Shown here in pieces: positions 9,050-52,174 of a stretch of 64,000 bases of DNA (positions within the stretch are counted from its first letter, which is position 1; the number at the start of each line of letters is the position of its first letter). A program made the translations under genes and the position numbers. Location: positions 32,001 through 96,000 of the IMG/VR virus record IMGVR_UViG_2703718869_000013; one strand, given 5' to 3'. This DNA is from a virus (Duplodnaviria > Heunggongvirae > Uroviricota > Caudoviricetes). The notes below the pieces were generated by a model. It made no database searches. It was not told the origin of the DNA and saw nothing but the letters and a program-made list of their open reading frames with translations.

Positions 9050-9850
9050 TTAGCGCGTTGCCGCGACAGGTACCAGCACACCAGCATCAAGCAATCGCTT
9101 CATCAGCCACTGCTGACCTTTGCCGGTTATACGAGTCGTGAAAGAAATCCTGCTTCCATTGCTTGTATCGATCACGGTTTCTTTAAGGGTGAAATACCCA
9201 CGGGATATGTATTCTTGTTTGGGGACGTTCCTGCGTTCACCGGTTGCGATCAGAATTCCGTTATCACGCAACCAGGTGAAGAGATAGTTTTGGCCCAGGC
9301 CGAGCACTTTGGCATAGTTGCCGATTAGAACCCCGCTGGCGGTAGCAACGCGTTCGGCGAATTCGACTTTAGGCGCATCCATAAGCATTTTTTGCTCCAG
9401 CCGTTGCTTTTGCTCTGCCAGGTCGGCAGCCAAACGGAGAGCTTCAGGGAGACTCTGCGGAATAGCAGGTTGTAATCTTCCGGCTCGATAGTCGATAAAT
9501 GTCTGGTTTACCTTCAGCCGAAACGCGGGAGAAATCCAGCCTGCGTACTCCACAGCGAGCAATTCATGGGCAAACGTACCGCCGCCACGGCCTTCGAACG
9601 AAACTATGCAATTCTGCATAGTTTCTTTTTCAAGCTCTTCGATGAGCTGTTTAGCTGACAGCGTTCTTAGCCATTGAGCTGGCGCTTTATGGGCACCGAG
9701 TCCGCTCGCTCTGTGTAGAGCATTAAGGTTGTAACGGCCAGCGCGGTCGGTCGTAATTTCAACACCACAAATAACGGGCAGAGTGGTTGAAGGATCGACA
9801 TTTTGATGAAGGTTTGATATATTCATATCCGCATTGAATGTTTGTTGCAT
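9050..9850 (-). CDS. kilA: KilA-like protein (KilA-N domain plus KilAC/ANT C-terminal domain)
   Basis: N-terminal VICGVEITTDRAGRYNLNALHRASG block is KilA-N-like; C-terminal LPEALRLAADLAEQK..PKVEFAERV..GNYAKVLGL block shared with the four Ant proteins; C1-operator-like site upstream. Confidence 0.7.
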   Translation of the reverse strand: MQQTFNADMNISNLHQNVDPSTTLPVICGVEITTDRAGRYNLNALHRASGLGAHKAPAQWLRTLSAKQLIEELEKETMQNCIVSFEGRGGGTFAHELLAVEYAGWISPAFRLKVNQTFIDYRAGRLQPAIPQSLPEALRLAADLAEQKQRLEQKMLMDAPKVEFAERVATASGVLIGNYAKVLGLGQNYLFTWLRDNGILIATGERRNVPKQEYISRGYFTLKETVIDTSNGSRISFTTRITGKGQQWLMKRLLDAGVLVPVAATR

Positions 9851-10014: not shown

Positions 10015-11058
10015 TTAACCTATTGCTACTGGTTTTAACAAACCAGCATCAAGTAGCTTGCGAGTTAACCACTGCTGGCCTTTACCCGTTAATTGGGGCG
10101 TCAGCCGTATCTGGTAGCCATTTTCATCATCCAGCACCACTTCTTTCACCGTGAAATACCCGGCGTTAATGTACTGCTGGCGCGGTACGTTTTTGCGCGC
10201 ACCAAAAGCCATGAGAATGCCGTTCTGGCGCAACCATGAGAAAAGGGCGTTTTGCTTAAGTCCAACGACCTTTGCAAAGTTCCCGATCAGGATTCCATTA
10301 GCCGCTGATACCCGGTCGGCAAAATCGACTTTAGGGGCTGCGGCCACCAGCTGTTGTTCCAACTGCATTTTCTGTTCTGCCAACTCGGCAGCCAGGCGTA
10401 GAGCTTCTGGTAATGTTTGGGGGATCGATGGGGTAGGGGAGTTTGCCTGCTGCAATTCTTCCAGTTTGTCGATCAGCGAACGGCGGACCGCTTTTGACTC
10501 GCGCGCGGCGACTCGCAAGGCTTGTTTGTAGGTCATGGTGATGACCTCAAAAGAGCGCCCAGCCCTTGTGCCATGGGATTTTGCACTTTTTGTGTAAAAT
10601 TCACCTTCAAGTTCATCGAGTATTTTTTCGATGAATTTATTGTTTCTAACCTCTGGTTCTCCACATAACTTGCGTGCCTCATTGACCATCTTCAACAATG
10701 TTTGGCTGTCGATTGTGTCTCCGGTGTTGGGGATGACATTCACGGCTGGTGTTGGCGTAGCTGACGTAACAGGTGCTGGTTTCTCAACATTCAAATTTTT
10801 ACCGGTCACTCTATGTGCCTCCTTTCTCATTTCTGCTGCCACCGTTGCGTAACGTAGACGTCCTTGTTCAATCAAATAATCCCTGATCTCGGCTATCAGT
10901 AGCCTGTTGATCACAGCCTTATCTGTTCGGGTATAAAAACGCCTGGTTATCATGAAATAGTTGGCAATTGCGCCGGGGATCTCCCGTGTCGGCATACAGG
11001 CAGTATGCAGGGCGATTGCTTCGGCTATGTCATTACGGGTGACGAGAGGTTTTTTCAT
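10015..11058 (-). CDS. ant: Antirepressor Ant (module A), KilAC/ANT C-terminal domain
   Basis: 347 aa; start overlaps icd stop; about 93% identical to Ant of module B by eye; C-terminal ANT domain shared with KilA. Confidence 0.8.
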   Translation of the reverse strand: MKKPLVTRNDIAEAIALHTACMPTREIPGAIANYFMITRRFYTRTDKAVINRLLIAEIRDYLIEQGRLRYATVAAEMRKEAHRVTGKNLNVEKPAPVTSATPTPAVNVIPNTGDTIDSQTLLKMVNEARKLCGEPEVRNNKFIEKILDELEGEFYTKSAKSHGTRAGRSFEVITMTYKQALRVAARESKAVRRSLIDKLEELQQANSPTPSIPQTLPEALRLAAELAEQKMQLEQQLVAAAPKVDFADRVSAANGILIGNFAKVVGLKQNALFSWLRQNGILMAFGARKNVPRQQYINAGYFTVKEVVLDDENGYQIRLTPQLTGKGQQWLTRKLLDAGLLKPVAIG

Positions 11059-11276
11059 AAAACCCCCTGAACGTCGGCAGAGAAGGGGAGGTTCCAGTAA
11101 CTAAGTGAATTGCGCGAGTTAGTTGAAAAACGGGCAGTAAAAATGCAGGGGCCATCAGGCAATTGAGAGCGTGCTTCGTCTTCTGTTGCTGCGATAACGA
11201 AGTGATAGTGGTGTTTTTTACAGGAATAGAAACGCCAGATGAATTCTTGGCGTGCGCAAGGATTGGCATTAACCAT
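11055..11276 (-). CDS. icd: Icd-like small protein (module A), translationally coupled to ant
   Basis: 73 codons, stop overlaps ant ATG; paralogous to 39144-39365, 46770-46991 and 53290-53511. Confidence 0.7.
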   Translation of the reverse strand: MVNANPCARQEFIWRFYSCKKHHYHFVIAATEDEARSQLPDGPCIFTARFSTNSRNSLSYWNLPFSADVQGVL

Positions 11277-11289
11277 AGTTACGGCCTCA

Positions 11290-11480
11290 CTAACAGGTTT
11301 AACAACCTGCTACCCGCTGTCAAACAGGTGGCAGGACGTGACAGGGTTGACAGACTGGCGTTAGTGAAACCAGCAGGCCGAAGCCTCCCCATCACGCCCC
11401 ACCATAATTCGGGCGTAACGCGGTTTACGGACACAAAAATACCGCAATATCGGAAATCTGCGGTTGTCCGCACTAACATT
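11290..11480 (-). ncRNA. c4: c4-like antisense RNA region (module A) with flanking target repeats
   Basis: Conserved structured block with GGCTTCGGCC tetraloop hairpin; motif triples TTTGACAG/CTGTCAA and GTTAGTG/CACTAAC; exact RNA ends not determinable. Confidence 0.55.
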
Positions 11481-11589
11481 CAGGCTGTCAAACCTGGTCG
11501 CAGAATTTGCTACGACGGCAGAACTATAAGCCTGAACGATTAAAAGGTCAATATGATGCGAAAAGATAGCATTCGCGACTTAAAAATAC

Positions 11590-11606
11590 AAATTTATTAG
11601 AGCATT
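11590..11606. promoter_or_regulatory. C1-operator-like site upstream of module A (Op51-like)
   Basis: 16/17 match to the operator 17-mer; adjacent TTGTGCA-ATAAA-TGCACAA palindrome. Confidence 0.6.
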
Positions 11607-11701
11607 ATTTGTGCAATAAATGCACAAATGGATCTAATAACCTCTTTTTTTTAAAGGCGAAAATATGTACCCTAAATGGGTTATAAGGCAGGTGAGATTA
11701 T

Positions 11702-11833
11702 AATGAGAAGACTATTACTACCGTTATTATTTATGGCCGGGACTGTTAATGCAGCATCAAGCGTAAAGGAGATTTGTACCGATTATACGAAATACCTTGG
11801 GCACGTTTACGCCTTTGCGATCAATGACTATTA
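11702..11833 (+). CDS. Small secreted peptide (signal peptide then 26-aa mature part)
   Basis: ATG with AGGTGAG Shine-Dalgarno; MRRLLLPLLFMAGTVNA signal-like N-terminus; below the ORF-track size cutoff. Confidence 0.4.
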
Positions 11834-11855
11834 ATCCATGCGTAGGAGTGGATTT

Positions 11856-12173
11856 ATGCTGATTCGTTTGTTTTTAGTGCTTTCCTTTTTAACATTTAAT
11901 GTTTTTGCTGATGAAGTTGACTTTTCGAAGGTAGATTGCAATTCAGTGGAAACAAGAAAAGCTCTTATTGAAGAATATAACGAAATATTATCGTCATATG
12001 GAATAACAGTGGTTGATTCTTATAATCAAAAAACTATTCAGAAAGGAATAAATAAACTGGTTTGTTATGGGGTTTACCAATATTCAGATGGCTCTTCGGA
12101 GTATGTTATTTATAAAGCATACCCAAATAGTCTTGGTGAATTGATTAGTGAGTTTAAACCGATTAATGAGTGA
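11856..12173 (+). CDS. Secreted hypothetical protein
   Basis: ATG at 11856 preceded by AGGAG; MLIRLFLVLSFLTFNVFA signal peptide; track ORF starts at upstream in-frame ATG 11838. Confidence 0.5.
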   Translation: MLIRLFLVLSFLTFNVFADEVDFSKVDCNSVETRKALIEEYNEILSSYGITVVDSYNQKTIQKGINKLVCYGVYQYSDGSSEYVIYKAYPNSLGELISEFKPINE

Positions 12174-12180
12174 ATGGAAA

Positions 12181-12960
12181 ATGAAATTATTTAATGTAAT
12201 AACATTTTGTTGTGCTATTTTTGCTGGAAGCGCGATAGCTGATAATAAATTGCCAGATTGGCTTTCTACTTCAAAAAAAGATTATGATTTAGTAAGGGTG
12301 TTCTATTTGTCTGGATTTGCCTCGAAAGCAATGAATAATCAATTTGGTTATCATTTTCCATCTGAGTTGGTTAATGATTTTAAAGATAATGAATTTGCCG
12401 CTCAGGAAAAATGGAATACAATTTCAATTGTATATGGTGAAATAAAATCCATAAGAATGGTGAATAATGAACCAATTGTAGAGTTATTTACTCCAGGGGA
12501 AAATGCAACGCCACTAAATTATATCAAATTGAAAGTGTTGGATTCAAAACAAAACTCTCTGTTAAAACTAAAAAAAGGGGATGATATATATGCAGTGTGC
12601 TCCGGTGCTAATTTTAGGTTAGTGCCAATTCTGAGCAACTGCACTCCAGCAACTGACGTCATTGATGCTGCACTCTCTTTTTCTGGTGAATATATGTTCC
12701 CTGCTTTTGATTCTTTTTCACCTACTAAGCAAAACGTCAAATATATATTCACAAATCAAGATCCTGTTCAGATGATGAATTTTATAGGGTACCTATCCTT
12801 AGTCGATACAACGAAGGATAAGAATAAAATGGATATGGTTCGTAAGTGTACGCCTTGGAAGCCGGAATGTTCACAACAATTCGTTGATGTAATGGAAGGA
12901 TTTGATAACATCATGTATAAATATGAGAGGGAATTTAAAAATTACATAGAATTAAAATAG
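12181..12960 (+). CDS. Secreted hypothetical protein (possible Sim-like superinfection exclusion, by position only)
   Basis: MKLFNVITFCCAIFAGSAIA signal peptide; AT-rich; divergent from the c4-icd-ant module; track ORF starts at 12148. Confidence 0.5.
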   Translation: MKLFNVITFCCAIFAGSAIADNKLPDWLSTSKKDYDLVRVFYLSGFASKAMNNQFGYHFPSELVNDFKDNEFAAQEKWNTISIVYGEIKSIRMVNNEPIVELFTPGENATPLNYIKLKVLDSKQNSLLKLKKGDDIYAVCSGANFRLVPILSNCTPATDVIDAALSFSGEYMFPAFDSFSPTKQNVKYIFTNQDPVQMMNFIGYLSLVDTTKDKNKMDMVRKCTPWKPECSQQFVDVMEGFDNIMYKYEREFKNYIELK

Positions 12961-12992
12961 TATTTGAAATGATAGTCAATTTAAGTTTTAAC

Positions 12993-13020
12993 AAAACGCC
13001 CATTAAAGGGCGTTTTATTG
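12993..13020 (+). terminator. Rho-independent terminator (AAAACGCCC-attaaa-GGGCGTTTT)
   Basis: Stem-loop with T-run after stop at 12960. Confidence 0.65.
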
Positions 13021-13183
13021 TTTTACTCAAAACAACCTGACTCAAAACAACCTGATTGTGTGATAACCATATGATACTCCTCATTCCATCTACACTACCT
13101 ACTCTAACTTAATGATACCATATTACTCCCGGACGGCAATATTCCCACTCAATGGACAAATGACTACTCGTAGAATCGGGTAA

Positions 13184-13774
<591 letters not shown>

Positions 13775-15373: not shown

Positions 15374-18300
15374 ATGGAAAGAAAAAACGCCAATATTGAC
15401 GATGTTATAAGGACAGTTGAAACCGCCAGCGCGAAAGAGCTGGAAGAGCTTGCAGGTATTCGGGAAGCTGTTGAAGATTTGAAAGGGGAACGAGTTGCAA
15501 CTGTTGATCCTGTCTCTCGCAGTGTGTCGGCATTAAATCGCACAATCGAAAATTCCCGGCCAGACTTTGTGGCCAATGCGCCATCCGTGGACCCTATTGT
15601 TGAGGCAATGAAACGGCTTAATTTAGGGGACGTTTCTCGTGTAGTTCAGGAGGATGTTGCTCTAGAGGAACCGCAGGCCAAATCAACTACGCGAAAGGGT
15701 AAAAAACGACGCAAGAAGGCTATAACAGAAGATGTAAAGGCGCAACGGACCGAAGCAGCCGAACACGCTCGCGAAATGTTCGGTCAAAAAGGCGGTGCGC
15801 AAAAAAGCCAAAACCAACGCGATGCGCGTGGTCGTTTTATTGGAAAGTCAGGGAGTAAGGCCGCAGCGGAAGATGCCCGTGCTGAACGTGCTGAAAAGGC
15901 CAGGCGCAAAGAGGATGATGAGCGTCTAAATGCTGAATCAGGTTTATTAAAAAAACTGTCAAAAGTAGCTGAAGGCATAGGTAACCCTTCAGAGACTCGT
16001 GCCGTCGATGCGTTAGGTTATGCCGTTGCTGGTCCATTGTGGGCAGCAGGGAAGGAGCTTGGCGGGATATCAAAAGAAGTTGGTGGATCGCTTAATGGTG
16101 CCAGAAAGTCTATTGCCGATGTGATTCGTGGCAATGACGATAACAGCCGTAGAAAAGGTTTTTTTAGGCGTAAATCGCAAAATAGTGCCGATGTCGTTCA
16201 GATTAACACCCAAAAACGGACGGTTCAGGAACTTCAGGATCAGACCAGCGAAATTAAAGAGGGCAATGACAAGATTCTCAGCGCCCTTGATCAGATAGCC
16301 AAAAACACCGGGAAAAAGAAGGGCGGCTTGCTGTCCAAATTATTTAGCCTGTTAGGGAAGGGGGCCGGTGGTATTGCCTCCCTTATTTTTGGCCGTGGGG
16401 CACTAAAGAAAGTTGGCTCGATGGCACTCGGCGCTTTAGGTATTAAGGGGGTAGGGAAACTAGGGATTAAGGCGGTCGCAAAAGGCGCTTTACGTGCAAT
16501 TCCGCTAGTCGGCACGGTGGCTGGAGGTATCTATGATGCGGTAACCGGTTGGAATGATATAGAAGCGCAACGCCGAGCGTTTGGGCTTAAATCAGGACAA
16601 GATCCATCATTCCAGCAAAAAGCCGCTTATACGTTAGCTAATGTTCTTGATATGGGGGGACTGGTATCTGGTATTAGCAGCGCCATTGGTGAGGTTCTCA
16701 AATCACTTGGATTTGAGGATATCGGCAATATGTTGCAATCATTTTCGACGGAAAGTATTGCCCAGGCCATTGATAGCGGGGTTACCAACTTAGAAACATA
16801 TATTTCTAATCTTGGCGACACCATTTCTACCAAGTTCGATGATTATACAGCAAAGATTGGTGATGCTATTTCTGCATGGTTCAGTGACACCACAAAGAAT
16901 CTGAACGAAAAATTAGACGCCATCAAAAACTTCTTTACTGTCGATAACCTGAAACAGGTTTTCAGTGATGCAATTGATAGTGCAATTGATTTCATTAAGA
17001 ATCCTGGGAAATACATTAAAGAGGCTGGCAGTAATCTATGGAGTGCCGCAAAAGAGCTTTCAGGTGAGGTTGCAGATGCCGCTGTTCAGAGCACCCCTGT
17101 GGCCTGGGTTGCATCAAAGCTAGTCAACAAAGCGGATGCGAAAGAGGTTACACCTGAATTAAAAACACCAGCTAAAGAAAGTCAGGAGGACAATGCTCCT
17201 AAGACTGAATATACCCCTAAAAAGGCTAATATTGTCACTCGTGTTGTAAATGCATCCCTAGATACGGCGAAAGATAGCAATAAAACAGTTAAAGAAACTG
17301 CCAATCAGATTATCAATGCAAATGCCGTAGAAACGGGCAATCGCGCGTTGCAGAAAATTGATAATGCTATTGGTCAAAATAGCTCATCATCATCGTCGCT
17401 TAATACTACTGGCACCAGGAATGACATTCAGAAAGCTGCGGATACCTACAACAATGGCAACTTAGATGTAAAAGTCGGAAGCCTTGGCGCTGAAGGTAAG
17501 GCAAATCTCGATAAGTTGGCTCCGTATTTTGCTGAACTAGAGAATAAATATGGCCTTCCTGAAGGTACTCTTTACGCGATCGCTGCAACTGAATCTGGTG
17601 GTGATCCTAACGCAAAATCTACGCTTACAAGATCACCAAATGGAAAGCTAAGTGGTGGCGCTCTCGGAATGTTCCAGTTTACGAGCGTTGCTCGTGAGGA
17701 AACTGGATTATCCCGGGAAGATTCTTTTAATCCGGAAAAATCGGCAGAAGCTGCGGCTCTTCTCATGAGCAAGTATCTGAAGCAAGCCAATGGAGACTTA
17801 AACGAGGCCATCACTGCATATAACGCTGGGTTTGGCACTATCAATAAGTGGAAAAAAGGCACAGGTGACTTATCGAAAGAAAACCGTGAGTACGCGATCA
17901 AGGTCAATACTCATCGTGCTCGCTATTTGGGTGGTGAAATCTATACACCTGGAGCAGGAGCACAGGGTGGGGCGCAATATGGAGTGAGGGGACCACTGCC
18001 TGATAACGCCGTTATCGATCAGTCTACTGGCCTGGCGTTTACCCCTGGTGATAGCCCGTTTGAGAAAGGCGGTCTGGTAGACAAAATCGGCAATGCTGTT
18101 GGCGTTAACGATCTGGTCAACAAATTCATGAATGGCCGGGGGATGCGTCGGGAAGTCGTTCAGGGAACCCTCGAAGAACGTGCACGAGGAAGGGGAACCG
18201 CAACGGCAGCTGGCAATGTGTATGTTGATACACCTATGCCAGTTGAAGAGGCACGTCCGGTAGCAAACAACTCAAGTTACTTTGACCAACTCGGTGCACA

Positions 18301-18706
18301 AATGGGGATTGATGGGCTGTATGACAAACTCATTAATGCCCGGGGAATGCGCTCAAATAATTCTCCTCAACCAGCCTCCACGTCCCAGGTGACGACTGCC
18401 GCCAACGATTTGCAGCAACCAACCGGTCGTATGCAGATAGACGGACAGGTTATTAGTGACCTTGGCGGCTCCGGTGCCAAGCCGACAATGCAGTTGGCTG
18501 ATAATACCGTTTCACTTGATGGTGAAACGAAGCGGCTGTTTGCGCAGATGACCTCATTGCTTGCCAGGATTGAAGAGCACACTAAAGACTCGGCGAAAGG
18601 CCAGGGAACTGTCGTAAAGGTCAGCACGCCTCAACCGGGCGTTATGCGCACGGTGCCACTGTCAATTGATGATCCGTTGATGAATGACTACGCGAGAGTT
18701 GATTGA
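15374..18706 (+). CDS. sit: Sit-like tape-measure / injection transglycosylase
   Basis: 1110 aa; lytic transglycosylase signature AIAATESGGDPNAKS ... GALGMFQF; Gly-rich membrane-like segment; size matches P1 Sit. Confidence 0.85.
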   Translation: MERKNANIDDVIRTVETASAKELEELAGIREAVEDLKGERVATVDPVSRSVSALNRTIENSRPDFVANAPSVDPIVEAMKRLNLGDVSRVVQEDVALEEPQAKSTTRKGKKRRKKAITEDVKAQRTEAAEHAREMFGQKGGAQKSQNQRDARGRFIGKSGSKAAAEDARAERAEKARRKEDDERLNAESGLLKKLSKVAEGIGNPSETRAVDALGYAVAGPLWAAGKELGGISKEVGGSLNGARKSIADVIRGNDDNSRRKGFFRRKSQNSADVVQINTQKRTVQELQDQTSEIKEGNDKILSALDQIAKNTGKKKGGLLSKLFSLLGKGAGGIASLIFGRGALKKVGSMALGALGIKGVGKLGIKAVAKGALRAIPLVGTVAGGIYDAVTGWNDIEAQRRAFGLKSGQDPSFQQKAAYTLANVLDMGGLVSGISSAIGEVLKSLGFEDIGNMLQSFSTESIAQAIDSGVTNLETYISNLGDTISTKFDDYTAKIGDAISAWFSDTTKNLNEKLDAIKNFFTVDNLKQVFSDAIDSAIDFIKNPGKYIKEAGSNLWSAAKELSGEVADAAVQSTPVAWVASKLVNKADAKEVTPELKTPAKESQEDNAPKTEYTPKKANIVTRVVNASLDTAKDSNKTVKETANQIINANAVETGNRALQKIDNAIGQNSSSSSSLNTTGTRNDIQKAADTYNNGNLDVKVGSLGAEGKANLDKLAPYFAELENKYGLPEGTLYAIAATESGGDPNAKSTLTRSPNGKLSGGALGMFQFTSVAREETGLSREDSFNPEKSAEAAALLMSKYLKQANGDLNEAITAYNAGFGTINKWKKGTGDLSKENREYAIKVNTHRARYLGGEIYTPGAGAQGGAQYGVRGPLPDNAVIDQSTGLAFTPGDSPFEKGGLVDKIGNAVGVNDLVNKFMNGRGMRREVVQGTLEERARGRGTATAAGNVYVDTPMPVEEARPVANNSSYFDQLGAQMGIDGLYDKLINARGMRSNNSPQPASTSQVTTAANDLQQPTGRMQIDGQVISDLGGSGAKPTMQLADNTVSLDGETKRLFAQMTSLLARIEEHTKDSAKGQGTVVKVSTPQPGVMRTVPLSIDDPLMNDYARVD

Positions 18707-51290: not shown

Positions 51291-52142
51291 ATGATAAATT
51301 ATGTCTACGGCGAACAACTGTACCAGGAGTTCGTCAGCTTCAGGGATCTCTTTCTAAAAAAAGCTGTTGCACGCGCCCAACACGTTGATGCCGCCAGCGA
51401 CGGTCGTCCTGTACGCCCGGTTGTCGTTCTGCCGTTCAAAGAAACGGACAGCATTCAGGCTGAAATTGATAAATGGACTTTAATGGCGCGGGAACTGGAA
51501 CAGTACCCAGACCTCAATATCCCAAAGACTATTTTATATCCAGTGCCTAACATCCTTCGCGGTGTGCGTAAGGTTACAACTTATCAGACAGAAGCTGTGA
51601 ACAGCGTCAACATGACCGCTGGCCGCATTATTCATCTGATTGATAAGGACATTCGCATCCAGAAAAGCGCGGGGATCAATGAGCACAGTGCGAAATACAT
51701 AGAGAACCTGGAAGCAACAAAAGAGCTAATGAAGCAGTACCCGGAGGATGAAAAATTCCGTATGCGTGTACACGGCTTTAGCGAAACAATGCTGCGCGTC
51801 CATTACATTTCCAGTAGCCCTAACTACAATGATGGTAAATCAGTTAGTTACCATGTGCCGCTGTGTGGTGTGTTTATCTGCGATGAAACTCTCCGTGATG
51901 GAATCATCATCAACGGTGAATTCGAGAAAGCAAAATTTAGCCTTTATGACTCTATAGAACCGATCATCTGCGACCGCTGGCCGCAGGCAAAAATATATCG
52001 CCTGGCAGATATTGAAAATGTAAAAAAACAAATTGCCATCACTCGCGAAGAGAAAAAGGTTAAGTCAGCCGCATCAGTTGCGCGCAGCCGTAAAACCAAG
52101 AAGGGGCAGCCAGTAAACGACAACCCCGAAAGCGCGCAATAA
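51291..52142 (+). CDS. c1: C1 master repressor of lysis
   Basis: 283 aa beginning MINYVYGEQLYQEF as recalled for P1 C1; operator sites throughout the window. Confidence 0.9.
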   Translation: MINYVYGEQLYQEFVSFRDLFLKKAVARAQHVDAASDGRPVRPVVVLPFKETDSIQAEIDKWTLMARELEQYPDLNIPKTILYPVPNILRGVRKVTTYQTEAVNSVNMTAGRIIHLIDKDIRIQKSAGINEHSAKYIENLEATKELMKQYPEDEKFRMRVHGFSETMLRVHYISSSPNYNDGKSVSYHVPLCGVFICDETLRDGIIINGEFEKAKFSLYDSIEPIICDRWPQAKIYRLADIENVKKQIAITREEKKVKSAASVARSRKTKKGQPVNDNPESAQ

Positions 52143-52145
52143 ATT

Positions 52146-52168
52146 ATGCCCGGCATCAACCGGGCATT
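52146..52168. terminator. Hairpin ATGCCCGG-catcaa-CCGGGCAT between convergent c1 and ant
   Basis: 8-bp stem directly after c1 stop. Confidence 0.5.
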
Positions 52169-52174
52169 CTTCCA

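What the first reader, a model, noticed from the sequence alone, without database searches (positions are those of the whole stretch)
11702..12960. Three consecutive signal-peptide proteins divergent from the immI module
A 43-aa, a 105-aa and a 259-aa ORF each begin with a typical cleavable signal peptide, lie in very AT-rich DNA, and end with a clean terminator. Their position beside c4-icd-ant is where P1 has the sim superimmunity genes, so they may be exclusion factors acting in the periplasm, but I cannot confirm similarity to Sim from memory.
Basis: partly seen in the sequence, partly recalled or inferred. Interest (0 to 1): 0.45.

Follow-up and report, generated by a model that had tools for sequence, protein, structure and literature searches.

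The report
Phage P1 sim exclusion operon

Summary
The window is a P1-like phage-plasmid, about 97% identical to P1 over 24 kb. Positions 11550-13040 are 97.5% identical to P1 46706-48196, which GenBank annotates as simA, simB and simC. Compared with P1, SimB is identical, SimC differs at 9 of 264 residues, and SimA at 3 of 52.

- Three co-directional ORFs each start with an n-h-c signal peptide and an AXA-type cleavage site.
- GC is 33%, against 47% for the window.
- A hairpin plus T-run terminator sits at 12993-13016.
- The operon is divergent from c4-icd-ant, across the C1 operator at 11590-11606.

The interpretation (P1 sim, periplasmic exclusion) is supported. sim is published as a superinfection-exclusion gene whose product is processed. 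It is not new.

Three side results are modest:
- simA here, as in P1, is a 5' stump of a 179-215-aa gene that is intact in other P1-like elements. The intact protein carries a motif copied from the tail protein Sit.
- The family is almost confined to P1-like plasmids, and the locus swaps cassettes of secreted proteins.

The molecular target of SimC remains unknown.

The parts
11590..11606 (-). C1 repressor operator (Op51/Oc4) in the divergent control region between c4-icd-ant and sim
   Evidence: One mismatch to the consensus ATTGCTCTAATAAATTT. Nine such sites in the window against 0.04 expected. Same position as P1's annotated operator Oc4.
11612..11638 (+). Position of P1's predicted sigma-70 promoter PsimA, transferred from the P1 annotation. 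It is weak and unproven. The -35 region differs from P1 here and lies inside a variant-specific inverted repeat.
   Evidence: P1 annotation at L001 4063-4089, offset +7549. Not found by the consensus scan. Sequence differences shown.
11703..11834 (+). simA: 43-aa ORF (52 aa from the ATG at 11676 used in P1's annotation) with a predicted signal peptide of 17 aa (11703-11753). It is the 5' remnant of a longer gene.
   Evidence: Homology to P1 SimA. Signal peptide rules. Matches only positions 1-41 of the 213-position phrog_3933. 90% identical over 41 aa to the N-terminus of the 215-aa Ro157c2YLVW gp35. The stop TAA at 11832-11834 aligns with a GAA codon of the long genes, and DNA homology continues to about 11849. 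tblastn with the long protein aligns residues 1-48 in many plasmids.
11856..12173 (+). simB: 105-aa secreted protein (111 aa from the P1-annotated ATG at 11838). Predicted signal peptide of 18 aa (11856-11909). Two cysteines conserved in a 59%-identical homologue.
   Evidence: 100% amino-acid identity to P1 SimB. phrog_14329 at E = 3e-71. AGGAG Shine-Dalgarno sequence and VFA|D cleavage site. dN/dS 0 against P1 and 0.16 against L007. Homologue P0013/L005 at 59% identity sits in a syntenic operon.
12181..12960 (+). simC (the original 'sim' gene): 259-aa precursor (264 aa from the P1-annotated ATG at 12166). Predicted signal peptide of 20 aa (12181-12240). Mature periplasmic protein of 239 aa with four conserved cysteines.
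   Evidence: Differs from P1 SimC at 9 of 264 residues. phrog_14355 at E = 1e-184. AIA|D cleavage site. Cysteines conserved in all full-length relatives. dN/dS 0.17 against P1 and 0.38 against L007.
12349..12645 (+). Central OB-fold domain of SimC (about residues 57-155 of the 259-aa precursor). Contains the Cys140 and Cys154 pair.
12993..13026 (+). Intrinsic terminator ending the sim operon
   Evidence: 9-bp stem with 5 GC pairs, 6-nt loop and a T-run. MFE -16.5 kcal/mol for 12961-13030, z = -3.25. Conserved in P1 and 673R5.
11324..11409 (-). c4 antisense RNA of the immI module (context: the divergent neighbour)
   Evidence: Rfam RF01695, 68.8 bits against a gathering score of 45.

Best explanation
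This is the simA-simB-simC operon of a P1-type phage-plasmid. It is an AT-rich accessory cassette lying between the immI module (c4-icd-ant) and the late tail operon (pmgC-tub-pmgB-sit).

Shown here or in the literature: SimC is made as a precursor with a Sec-type signal peptide and is processed. sim causes superinfection exclusion of P1 and is dispensable for lytic growth.

Inferred mechanism: mature SimC is a soluble periplasmic protein. It has a short N-terminal helical region, an OB-fold domain, a C-terminal helical domain and probably two disulfide bonds. It intercepts the ejection machinery of an incoming P1 between the two membranes. Its most likely target is the tail-tip/tape-measure transglycosylase Sit, or the conduit Sit builds. 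The result is that the DNA never reaches the cytoplasm.

SimB is a conserved, co-inherited secreted partner of unknown role. SimA in this element, as in P1, is a truncated stump and probably contributes nothing.
For: Identity:
- 97.5% nucleotide identity to the annotated P1 sim locus, with the same flanking genes.
- Protein identities; PHROG matches.

Export:
- Three rule-conforming signal peptides.
- Conserved cysteine pairs in SimB and SimC, as expected for periplasmic proteins.
- The published title 'purification of the processed protein' (Maillou & Dreiseikelmann 1990, cited in PMC2409434).

Function:
[quoted passage not shown] - simA, simB and simC scored non-essential by CRISPRi (PMC10695390).

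Selection:
- dN/dS 0.17-0.38 for simC and 0-0.16 for simB.
- The same simB-simC pair occurs at 59% and 47% identity in a diverged P1-like element.

Hint towards Sit as the target: the intact form of the neighbouring gene simA carries a copy of a Sit motif. The E-value is 8e-9 for a single pairwise comparison and 4e-7 against all ORFs of the window. Two positions of the motif vary together with the cognate Sit.
Against:
- From memory of Devlin et al. 1982, the Sim phenotype was seen with multicopy clones, so its strength from a single-copy prophage is uncertain.
- The molecular target is unknown. The Sit connection comes from long SimA, which this element lacks, not from SimC.
- The SimC model has low confidence (mean pLDDT 44.8), and SimC itself scores below Pfam's cut-off for PF12869.
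- No promoter was confirmed.
Confidence: 0.9

Rival explanations
1. SimC works like T4 Sp. It inhibits the peptidoglycan-cleaving (SLT) activity of the incoming Sit protein, so the tail tube cannot cross the murein layer.
For: Sit carries an SLT transglycosylase domain (P1 annotation; PF01464 on Sit homologues). SimC is periplasmic by prediction. The T4 Sp precedent is established knowledge; T-even exclusion is mentioned in PMC13128918.
Against: SimC shows no similarity to Sp or to known lysozyme or transglycosylase inhibitors: no Pfam, NCBIfam or PADLOC hits. The Sit-like motif in long SimA lies at Sit residues 907-949, downstream of the stretch that reads as the SLT domain (the GMFQ motif near residue 765). 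The domain boundary was judged by eye and not mapped with a tool.
Confidence: 0.15
2. SimC binds the incoming phage DNA itself in the periplasm through its OB fold and stalls or exposes it.
Against: Ejected DNA is normally shielded inside a protein conduit. The nucleic-acid label on PF12869 and 3f1z is a prediction, not a test. OB folds also bind proteins and sugars. DNA binding would not explain the narrow P1 specificity.
Confidence: 0.1
3. SimC, with or without SimB, blocks a host envelope component that P1 needs for DNA passage across the inner membrane, rather than binding any phage part.
For: Several exclusion proteins of other phages work this way. DicB acting on inner-membrane receptor proteins is one example (PMC6832061). 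Alternative cassettes at this locus encode a lipoprotein and a membrane protein (P7 upf50.5 and upf50.0).
Against: No host inner-membrane factor for P1 entry is known to me. The copy of a Sit motif in long SimA would fit either a decoy for such a host factor or direct interference with the phage, so it does not discriminate.
Confidence: 0.2
4. The three genes are simply horizontally acquired 'moron' cargo with a host-directed role, such as envelope or fitness functions. On this view, exclusion is a multicopy artefact.
For: Low GC (33%), its own terminator and replaceability by unrelated cassettes. The region is listed among the eight variable low-GC regions of P1-like plasmids (PMC9603915).
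Against: Exclusion of P1 is published. The family is almost confined to P1-like elements: 14 hits among 1.84 billion representatives. That pattern argues for a phage-specific role rather than a general host function.
Confidence: 0.07

Closest known systems
Phage P1 simABC operon (SimC = Sim; GenBank NC_005856 46786-48070; M34382)
   Same: Same locus, same gene order and same flanks. 97.5% nucleotide identity. SimB identical; SimC differs at 9 of 264 residues and SimA at 3 of 52. Same terminator and C1 operator.
   Different: Nine substitutions in SimC (A45V, L64F, P87S, K102E, I124V, D130N, S151R, S248N, G255R in P1 numbering), seven of them in or near the OB-fold region. Five base differences in the predicted PsimA -35 region. 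Downstream of the terminator there is a 15-bp duplication and a 23-bp insertion. The allele is 99.5-99.9% identical to those of many E. coli P1-like plasmids and of phages 673R5 and 813R1.
T4 Sp and Imm (superinfection exclusion at the DNA-entry step)
   Same: Phage-encoded, envelope-located, narrow-spectrum blocks acting after adsorption and before DNA reaches the cytoplasm. Sp acts in the periplasm against the tail lysozyme.
   Different: No sequence or domain similarity was detected. Sp and Imm are membrane proteins, whereas SimC is predicted to be soluble after signal-peptide cleavage.
PF12869 tRNA_anti-like OB-fold proteins (for example PDB 3f1z, a Klebsiella putative nucleic acid-binding lipoprotein; Enterobacter 'OB-fold protein' P0025)
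   Different: SimC itself is below the threshold (19.1 against 23.5 bits). It also has an extra N-terminal helical segment and a C-terminal helical domain of about 100 aa with a second cysteine pair. No function is known for the family.
Alternative cassettes at the same locus in other P1-like phages (P7 upf50.5/upf50.0; Ro157c2YLVW gp35/gp34)
   Same: Same position between immI and pmgC, same orientation, and all encode proteins with signal peptides.
   Different: The sequences are unrelated, except that Ro157c2YLVW gp35 is the intact version of simA. Their functions are untested.

Membership tests
P1 Sim/SimC superinfection-exclusion protein | Sequence homology to P1 SimC over its full length | tested here: met
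   255 of 264 residues identical. phrog_14355 at E = 1e-184, covering 1-264 of 264 positions.
P1 Sim/SimC superinfection-exclusion protein | Location in a three-gene operon between immI (c4-icd-ant) and pmgC, divergent from c4 | tested here: met
   The window genes are colinear with P1 kilA-ant-icd-c4 | simA-simB-simC | pmgC-tub-pmgB-sit.
P1 Sim/SimC superinfection-exclusion protein | Cleavable N-terminal signal peptide (the protein is processed) | tested here: met
   Rule-based analysis: n-h-c regions and an AIA|D site after residue 20. The signal-peptide codons are identical to P1. Processing of P1 Sim is published (Maillou & Dreiseikelmann 1990, cited). No SignalP run or experiment was possible.
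P1 Sim/SimC superinfection-exclusion protein | Confers exclusion of superinfecting P1 after adsorption | not testable with these tools
   This needs cloning and plating or transduction assays. It is known for the P1 allele only.
P1 SimB | Sequence homology and position upstream of simC | tested here: met
   100% amino-acid identity. phrog_14329 at E = 3e-71.
P1 SimA (as annotated in P1) | Sequence homology and position as the first gene of the operon | tested here: met
   49 of 52 residues identical.
Long SimA family (phrog_3933; 179-215 aa; 'simA domain protein') | Full-length protein including the C-terminal Sit-like GMR..V.GTLE.RARG motif | tested here: not met
   The window ORF stops after 43 aa. 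It matches only profile positions 1-41 of 213, and a TAA replaces a GAA codon. The motif is absent.
Pfam PF12869 tRNA_anti-like (OB fold) | Score at or above the gathering threshold (23.5 bits) | tested here: inconclusive
Catalogued anti-phage defence systems (PADLOC-DB 2.0) | Match to any defence-protein model | tested here: not met
   No hits for SimA, SimB, SimC or the alternative cassette proteins.

The most novel reading that the evidence does not exclude
The slot between immI and pmgC in P1-type phages may be an exchange point for periplasmic anti-entry factors that target the phage's own injection protein Sit. On this reading, intact SimA (lost in P1 and in this window) is a secreted decoy carrying a copy of a Sit C-terminal motif that tracks the cognate Sit sequence. 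SimC would be an OB-fold protein that binds the same ejection intermediate. If so, the decades-old question of how Sim blocks P1 DNA entry becomes directly testable as a SimC/SimA-Sit interaction. It would also mean that P1 itself carries a degraded version of an originally three-component system.
Probability: 0.25. Interest if true: 0.5.

Novelty: already known. Interest (0 to 1): 0.12.

Why it matters
As a finding it adds nothing. The sim operon has been mapped, sequenced and named since 1982-2004, and this copy is a near-identical allele that is common in E. coli P1-like plasmids.

Its remaining value is as a pointer. How Sim blocks entry is still unknown at the molecular level. Three comparative results narrow the experiments needed: the OB fold in SimC, the conserved disulfide cysteines, and an intact SimA elsewhere that carries a Sit motif.

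There is also a practical side. sim alleles on resident P1-like plasmids (about 136 of 454 matching PLSDB records) could reduce P1 transduction or P1-based delivery into natural isolates.

Tried and rejected
- Sequence searches of the PDB with SimC, with the SimC-family profile, with SimB and with P0025 found nothing significant. The CD94 match at E = 0.09 and the sortase match at E = 0.095 were rejected as noise.
- Pfam, NCBIfam and PADLOC gave no family for SimA or SimB. The TcpS and eut_hyp hits are far below their cut-offs and were rejected.
- I looked for paralogy among SimA, SimB and SimC, and for similarity of SimB or SimC to any other ORF in the window. There is none. One SimC hit at E = 0.007 to a minus-strand ORF at 51947-52174 was judged to be chance.
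- The P1 genome paper (PMC523184) is not held, so Lobocka et al.'s own text on simABC could not be read. Details of the 1982-1990 Virology papers beyond their titles rest on my memory and on secondary citations.
- The perfect inverted repeat at 11608-11628 was checked against P1, Ro157c2YLVW, P7 and L007. It is not conserved, so I did not treat it as a regulatory site.
- The diverged operon in L008 has no match in the phage collection by megablast.

Full report
**What is there.** On the + strand, listing ORFs and reading the sequence shows three tightly spaced ORFs. They are 11703-11834 (43 aa), 11856-12173 (105 aa) and 12181-12960 (259 aa). Each also has an upstream in-frame start, at 11676, 11838 and 12166. 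The segment is 33.4% GC against 46.8% for the window.

- A hairpin with a 9-bp stem, 5 GC pairs and a T-run follows at 12993-13016. It was the only terminator-like site in the 1.8 kb scanned, and the surrounding 70 nt fold at -16.5 kcal/mol (z = -3.25).
- Upstream on the other strand, Rfam finds the C4 antisense RNA (11324-11409) and its a1b1 target (11477-11529).
- icd and ant lie further upstream at 10015-11276.
- A C1 operator sits at 11590-11606.

**Signal peptides.** No dedicated predictor was available, so I applied the classical rules.

- The cleavage predictions are SimA MRRLLLPLLFMAGTVNA|ASS, SimB MLIRLFLVLSFLTFNVFA|DEV and SimC MKLFNVITFCCAIFAGSAIA|DNK.
- Each has a basic n-region, a hydrophobic core, small residues at -3 and -1, and no further hydrophobic segment. 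All three are therefore predicted to be exported and released, not membrane-anchored.
- Mature SimB keeps two cysteines in its 59%-identical homologue. Mature SimC keeps four cysteines in every full-length relative, including one at 27% identity. Conserved cysteine pairs are typical of periplasmic proteins.

**Identity.**

- Megablast of 11550-13100 hits phage P1 (NC_005856 46706-48196) at 97.5% identity over 96% of the query, under the features simA, simB and simC. It also hits the original sim sequence entry M34382.
- The P1 record shows the same neighbourhood: repL, kilA, ant1/2, icd, c4, Oc4 | simA, simB, simC | LPsit, pmgC, tub, pmgB, sit.
- The first 24 kb of the window is 97% identical to P1 overall, so the window is a P1-type phage-plasmid.
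- SimB is identical to P1's. SimC has 9 substitutions and SimA has 3.
- Closer alleles (99.5-99.9%) occur in phages 673R5 and 813R1 and in many E. coli plasmids.
- In PLSDB, 454 plasmids match the query and 136 of them carry at least 80% of it. Roughly a third of P1-like plasmids therefore have this operon.

**What is known.** sim was defined genetically by Devlin, Baumstark & Scott (1982). Kliem & Dreiseikelmann (1989) showed that it causes superinfection exclusion. Maillou & Dreiseikelmann (1990) sequenced it and purified the processed protein. These papers are cited in PMC8546580, PMC2409434 and PMC9177967.

- A genome-wide CRISPRi screen scored simA, simB and simC as non-essential (PMC10695390).
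- A survey of P1-like phage-plasmids lists simABC among eight variable, low-GC regions (PMC9603915).

**Extra anatomy 1: simA is a stump.**

- PHROGs matched SimA only to positions 1-41 of a 213-position family.
- In phage Ro157c2YLVW the same upstream DNA leads into a 215-aa gene, gp35. It is 90% identical to window SimA over the first 41 residues.
- A diverged P1-like contig (GCA_053108235.1; loci L005 and L008) has a complete operon: long SimA (179 aa), SimB (59% identity) and SimC (47% identity).
- A metagenomic contig (L007) has simB, simC (83% identity), long simA and a yfjT-like gene in tandem.
- DNA alignment shows that window homology to the long genes runs to about 11849. The window's stop codon TAA (11832-11834) aligns with a GAA codon. 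The ATG at 11838 that P1 annotates as the simB start is the Met codon of the long protein's DESMRK.
- tblastn with the long protein finds 84 plasmids with the full gene. In the plasmids sampled lower in the ranking, only residues 1-48 align, which is the stump.

**Extra anatomy 2: a Sit motif in long SimA.**

- Long SimA residues 122-168 match residues 907-949 of the window's Sit at 49% identity. Sit is the 1110-aa tape-measure/transglycosylase encoded at 15374-18706. The E-value is 8e-9 for a single pairwise comparison and 4e-7 against all ORFs of the window.
- The motif GMR..V(Q/E)GTLE.RARG.G(T/V) is present in three long SimA proteins and three Sit proteins.
- At two positions SimA matches its own phage's Sit: Q and T in Ro157c2YLVW, E and V in L008.
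- This suggests a periplasmic decoy of a Sit segment. The motif is not present in this window, because simA is truncated here.

**Extra anatomy 3: SimC fold and family size.**

- An exhaustive HMMER scan of 1.84 billion representatives found only 14 hits. Three or four are full length, at 83%, 39% and 27% identity.
- SimC itself scores 19.1 bits on PF12869 (tRNA_anti-like OB fold), below the 23.5-bit cut-off. Its relatives P0025 (53.8 bits; named 'OB-fold protein' at NCBI) and P0027 (25.9 bits) pass.
- AlphaFold models are poor (pLDDT 31.7 and 44.8). The stretch at residues 55-140 reaches 54-68 and shows a helix, three strands, a helix and a strand.
- I take the OB fold as likely but not proven.
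- simB and simC are under purifying selection, with dN/dS between 0 and 0.38.

**Mechanism.**

- *Shown, here or in the literature:* the identity of the locus, an exported and processed product, exclusion of P1, and dispensability.
- *Inferred:* mature SimC sits in the periplasm and interferes with the ejection apparatus of an incoming P1, so that its DNA does not reach the cytoplasm. I favour Sit, or the conduit it forms, as the target. The reasons are the Sit-motif copy in the neighbouring ancestral gene and the narrow distribution of the family. This step is speculative, at about 0.3.
- *Rivals:* inhibition of Sit's muralytic activity as with T4 Sp; direct DNA binding by the OB fold; blocking of a host inner-membrane factor; or a host-directed cargo function.

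**Comparison and verdict.** The operon is a member of the P1 sim family by every feature that could be tested. Only the phenotype could not be tested. It works like other entry-blocking exclusion systems such as T4 Imm and Sp, but shares no sequence with them or with any PADLOC model. Novelty: already known. Interest is low. The side observations are small leads for anyone wishing to solve Sim's mechanism.

Noticed in passing
window 11703-11849; compare L003 3154-3801, L007 1921-2568, L005 3411-3950: simA of P1 and of this window is the 5' remnant of a 179-215-aa gene that is intact in other P1-like elements. The stop codon TAA at 11832-11834 aligns with a GAA codon. The ATG that P1 annotates as the simB start (11838) is an internal Met codon of the long gene. 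In PLSDB, 84 plasmids carry the long form. In the plasmids sampled lower in the ranking, only residues 1-48 align.
   Followed up: yes
window 18092-18220 (Sit residues 907-949); L003 3154-3801 residues 122-168; L008 9411-9950 residues 140-167: Long SimA proteins, which are secreted, carry a copy of a Sit C-terminal motif, GMR..V(Q/E)GTLE.RARG.G(T/V). Identity to Sit is 49-63%, with E = 8e-9 for a single pairwise comparison. Two positions co-vary with the cognate Sit. This may be a periplasmic decoy of the injection protein.
   Followed up: partly
locus between immI and pmgC: window 11650-13200; L004 3839-4903 (P7); L003 3154-4329 (Ro157c2YLVW); L007 209-3109: This slot is a cassette exchange point, and every alternative cassette encodes proteins with signal peptides. 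P7 has lipoprotein upf50.5 plus the DUF5384 protein upf50.0. Ro157c2YLVW has long SimA plus a 158-aa protein; its 92%-identical L007 homologue has a precomputed PF27224 (YfjT) hit, though my own Pfam scan of the Ro157c2YLVW protein found nothing. L007 has a 107-aa hydrophobic protein, simB, simC, long simA and the yfjT-like gene. L005 has an IS605-family tnpB inserted between icd and the operon.
   Followed up: partly
window 11608-11628: A perfect 8-bp inverted repeat, TTTGTGCA-ATAAA-TGCACAAA, overlaps the position of P1's predicted PsimA -35, next to the C1 operator. It is shared with 673R5. In P1 it is degraded (TTTGTTTA...TACACAGT), and it is not conserved in Ro157c2YLVW, P7 or L007. It is probably of no significance.
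   Followed up: yes
window 13025-13054 and about 13103-13125: Compared with P1, there is a 15-bp tandem duplication (ACTCAAAACAACCTG twice) just after the sim terminator. There is also a 23-bp insertion in the spacer before the late promoter LPsit. Both are shared with phage 673R5.
   Followed up: no
L002 (ON470615.2, phage vB_EcoM-673R5), simC region: That record has two single-base deletions in homopolymer runs within simC and annotates the gene as two fragments. These are probably sequencing errors, because the window and the plasmid alleles are intact.
   Followed up: no
window simC and the simA/simB junction (P1 positions 47270 and 47906): A published in-silico scan reports high-scoring ArgR boxes within simC and at the simA-simB junction of P1 (PMC2409434). 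They are untested, and I did not check them in this allele.
   Followed up: no
window 9050-9850 (kilA) and 10015-11058 (ant1): The C-terminal halves of KilA and Ant1 are visibly paralogous (…PQSLPEALRLAA-LAEQK…GKGQQWL…). This is known for P1 and unrelated to the finding.
   Followed up: no
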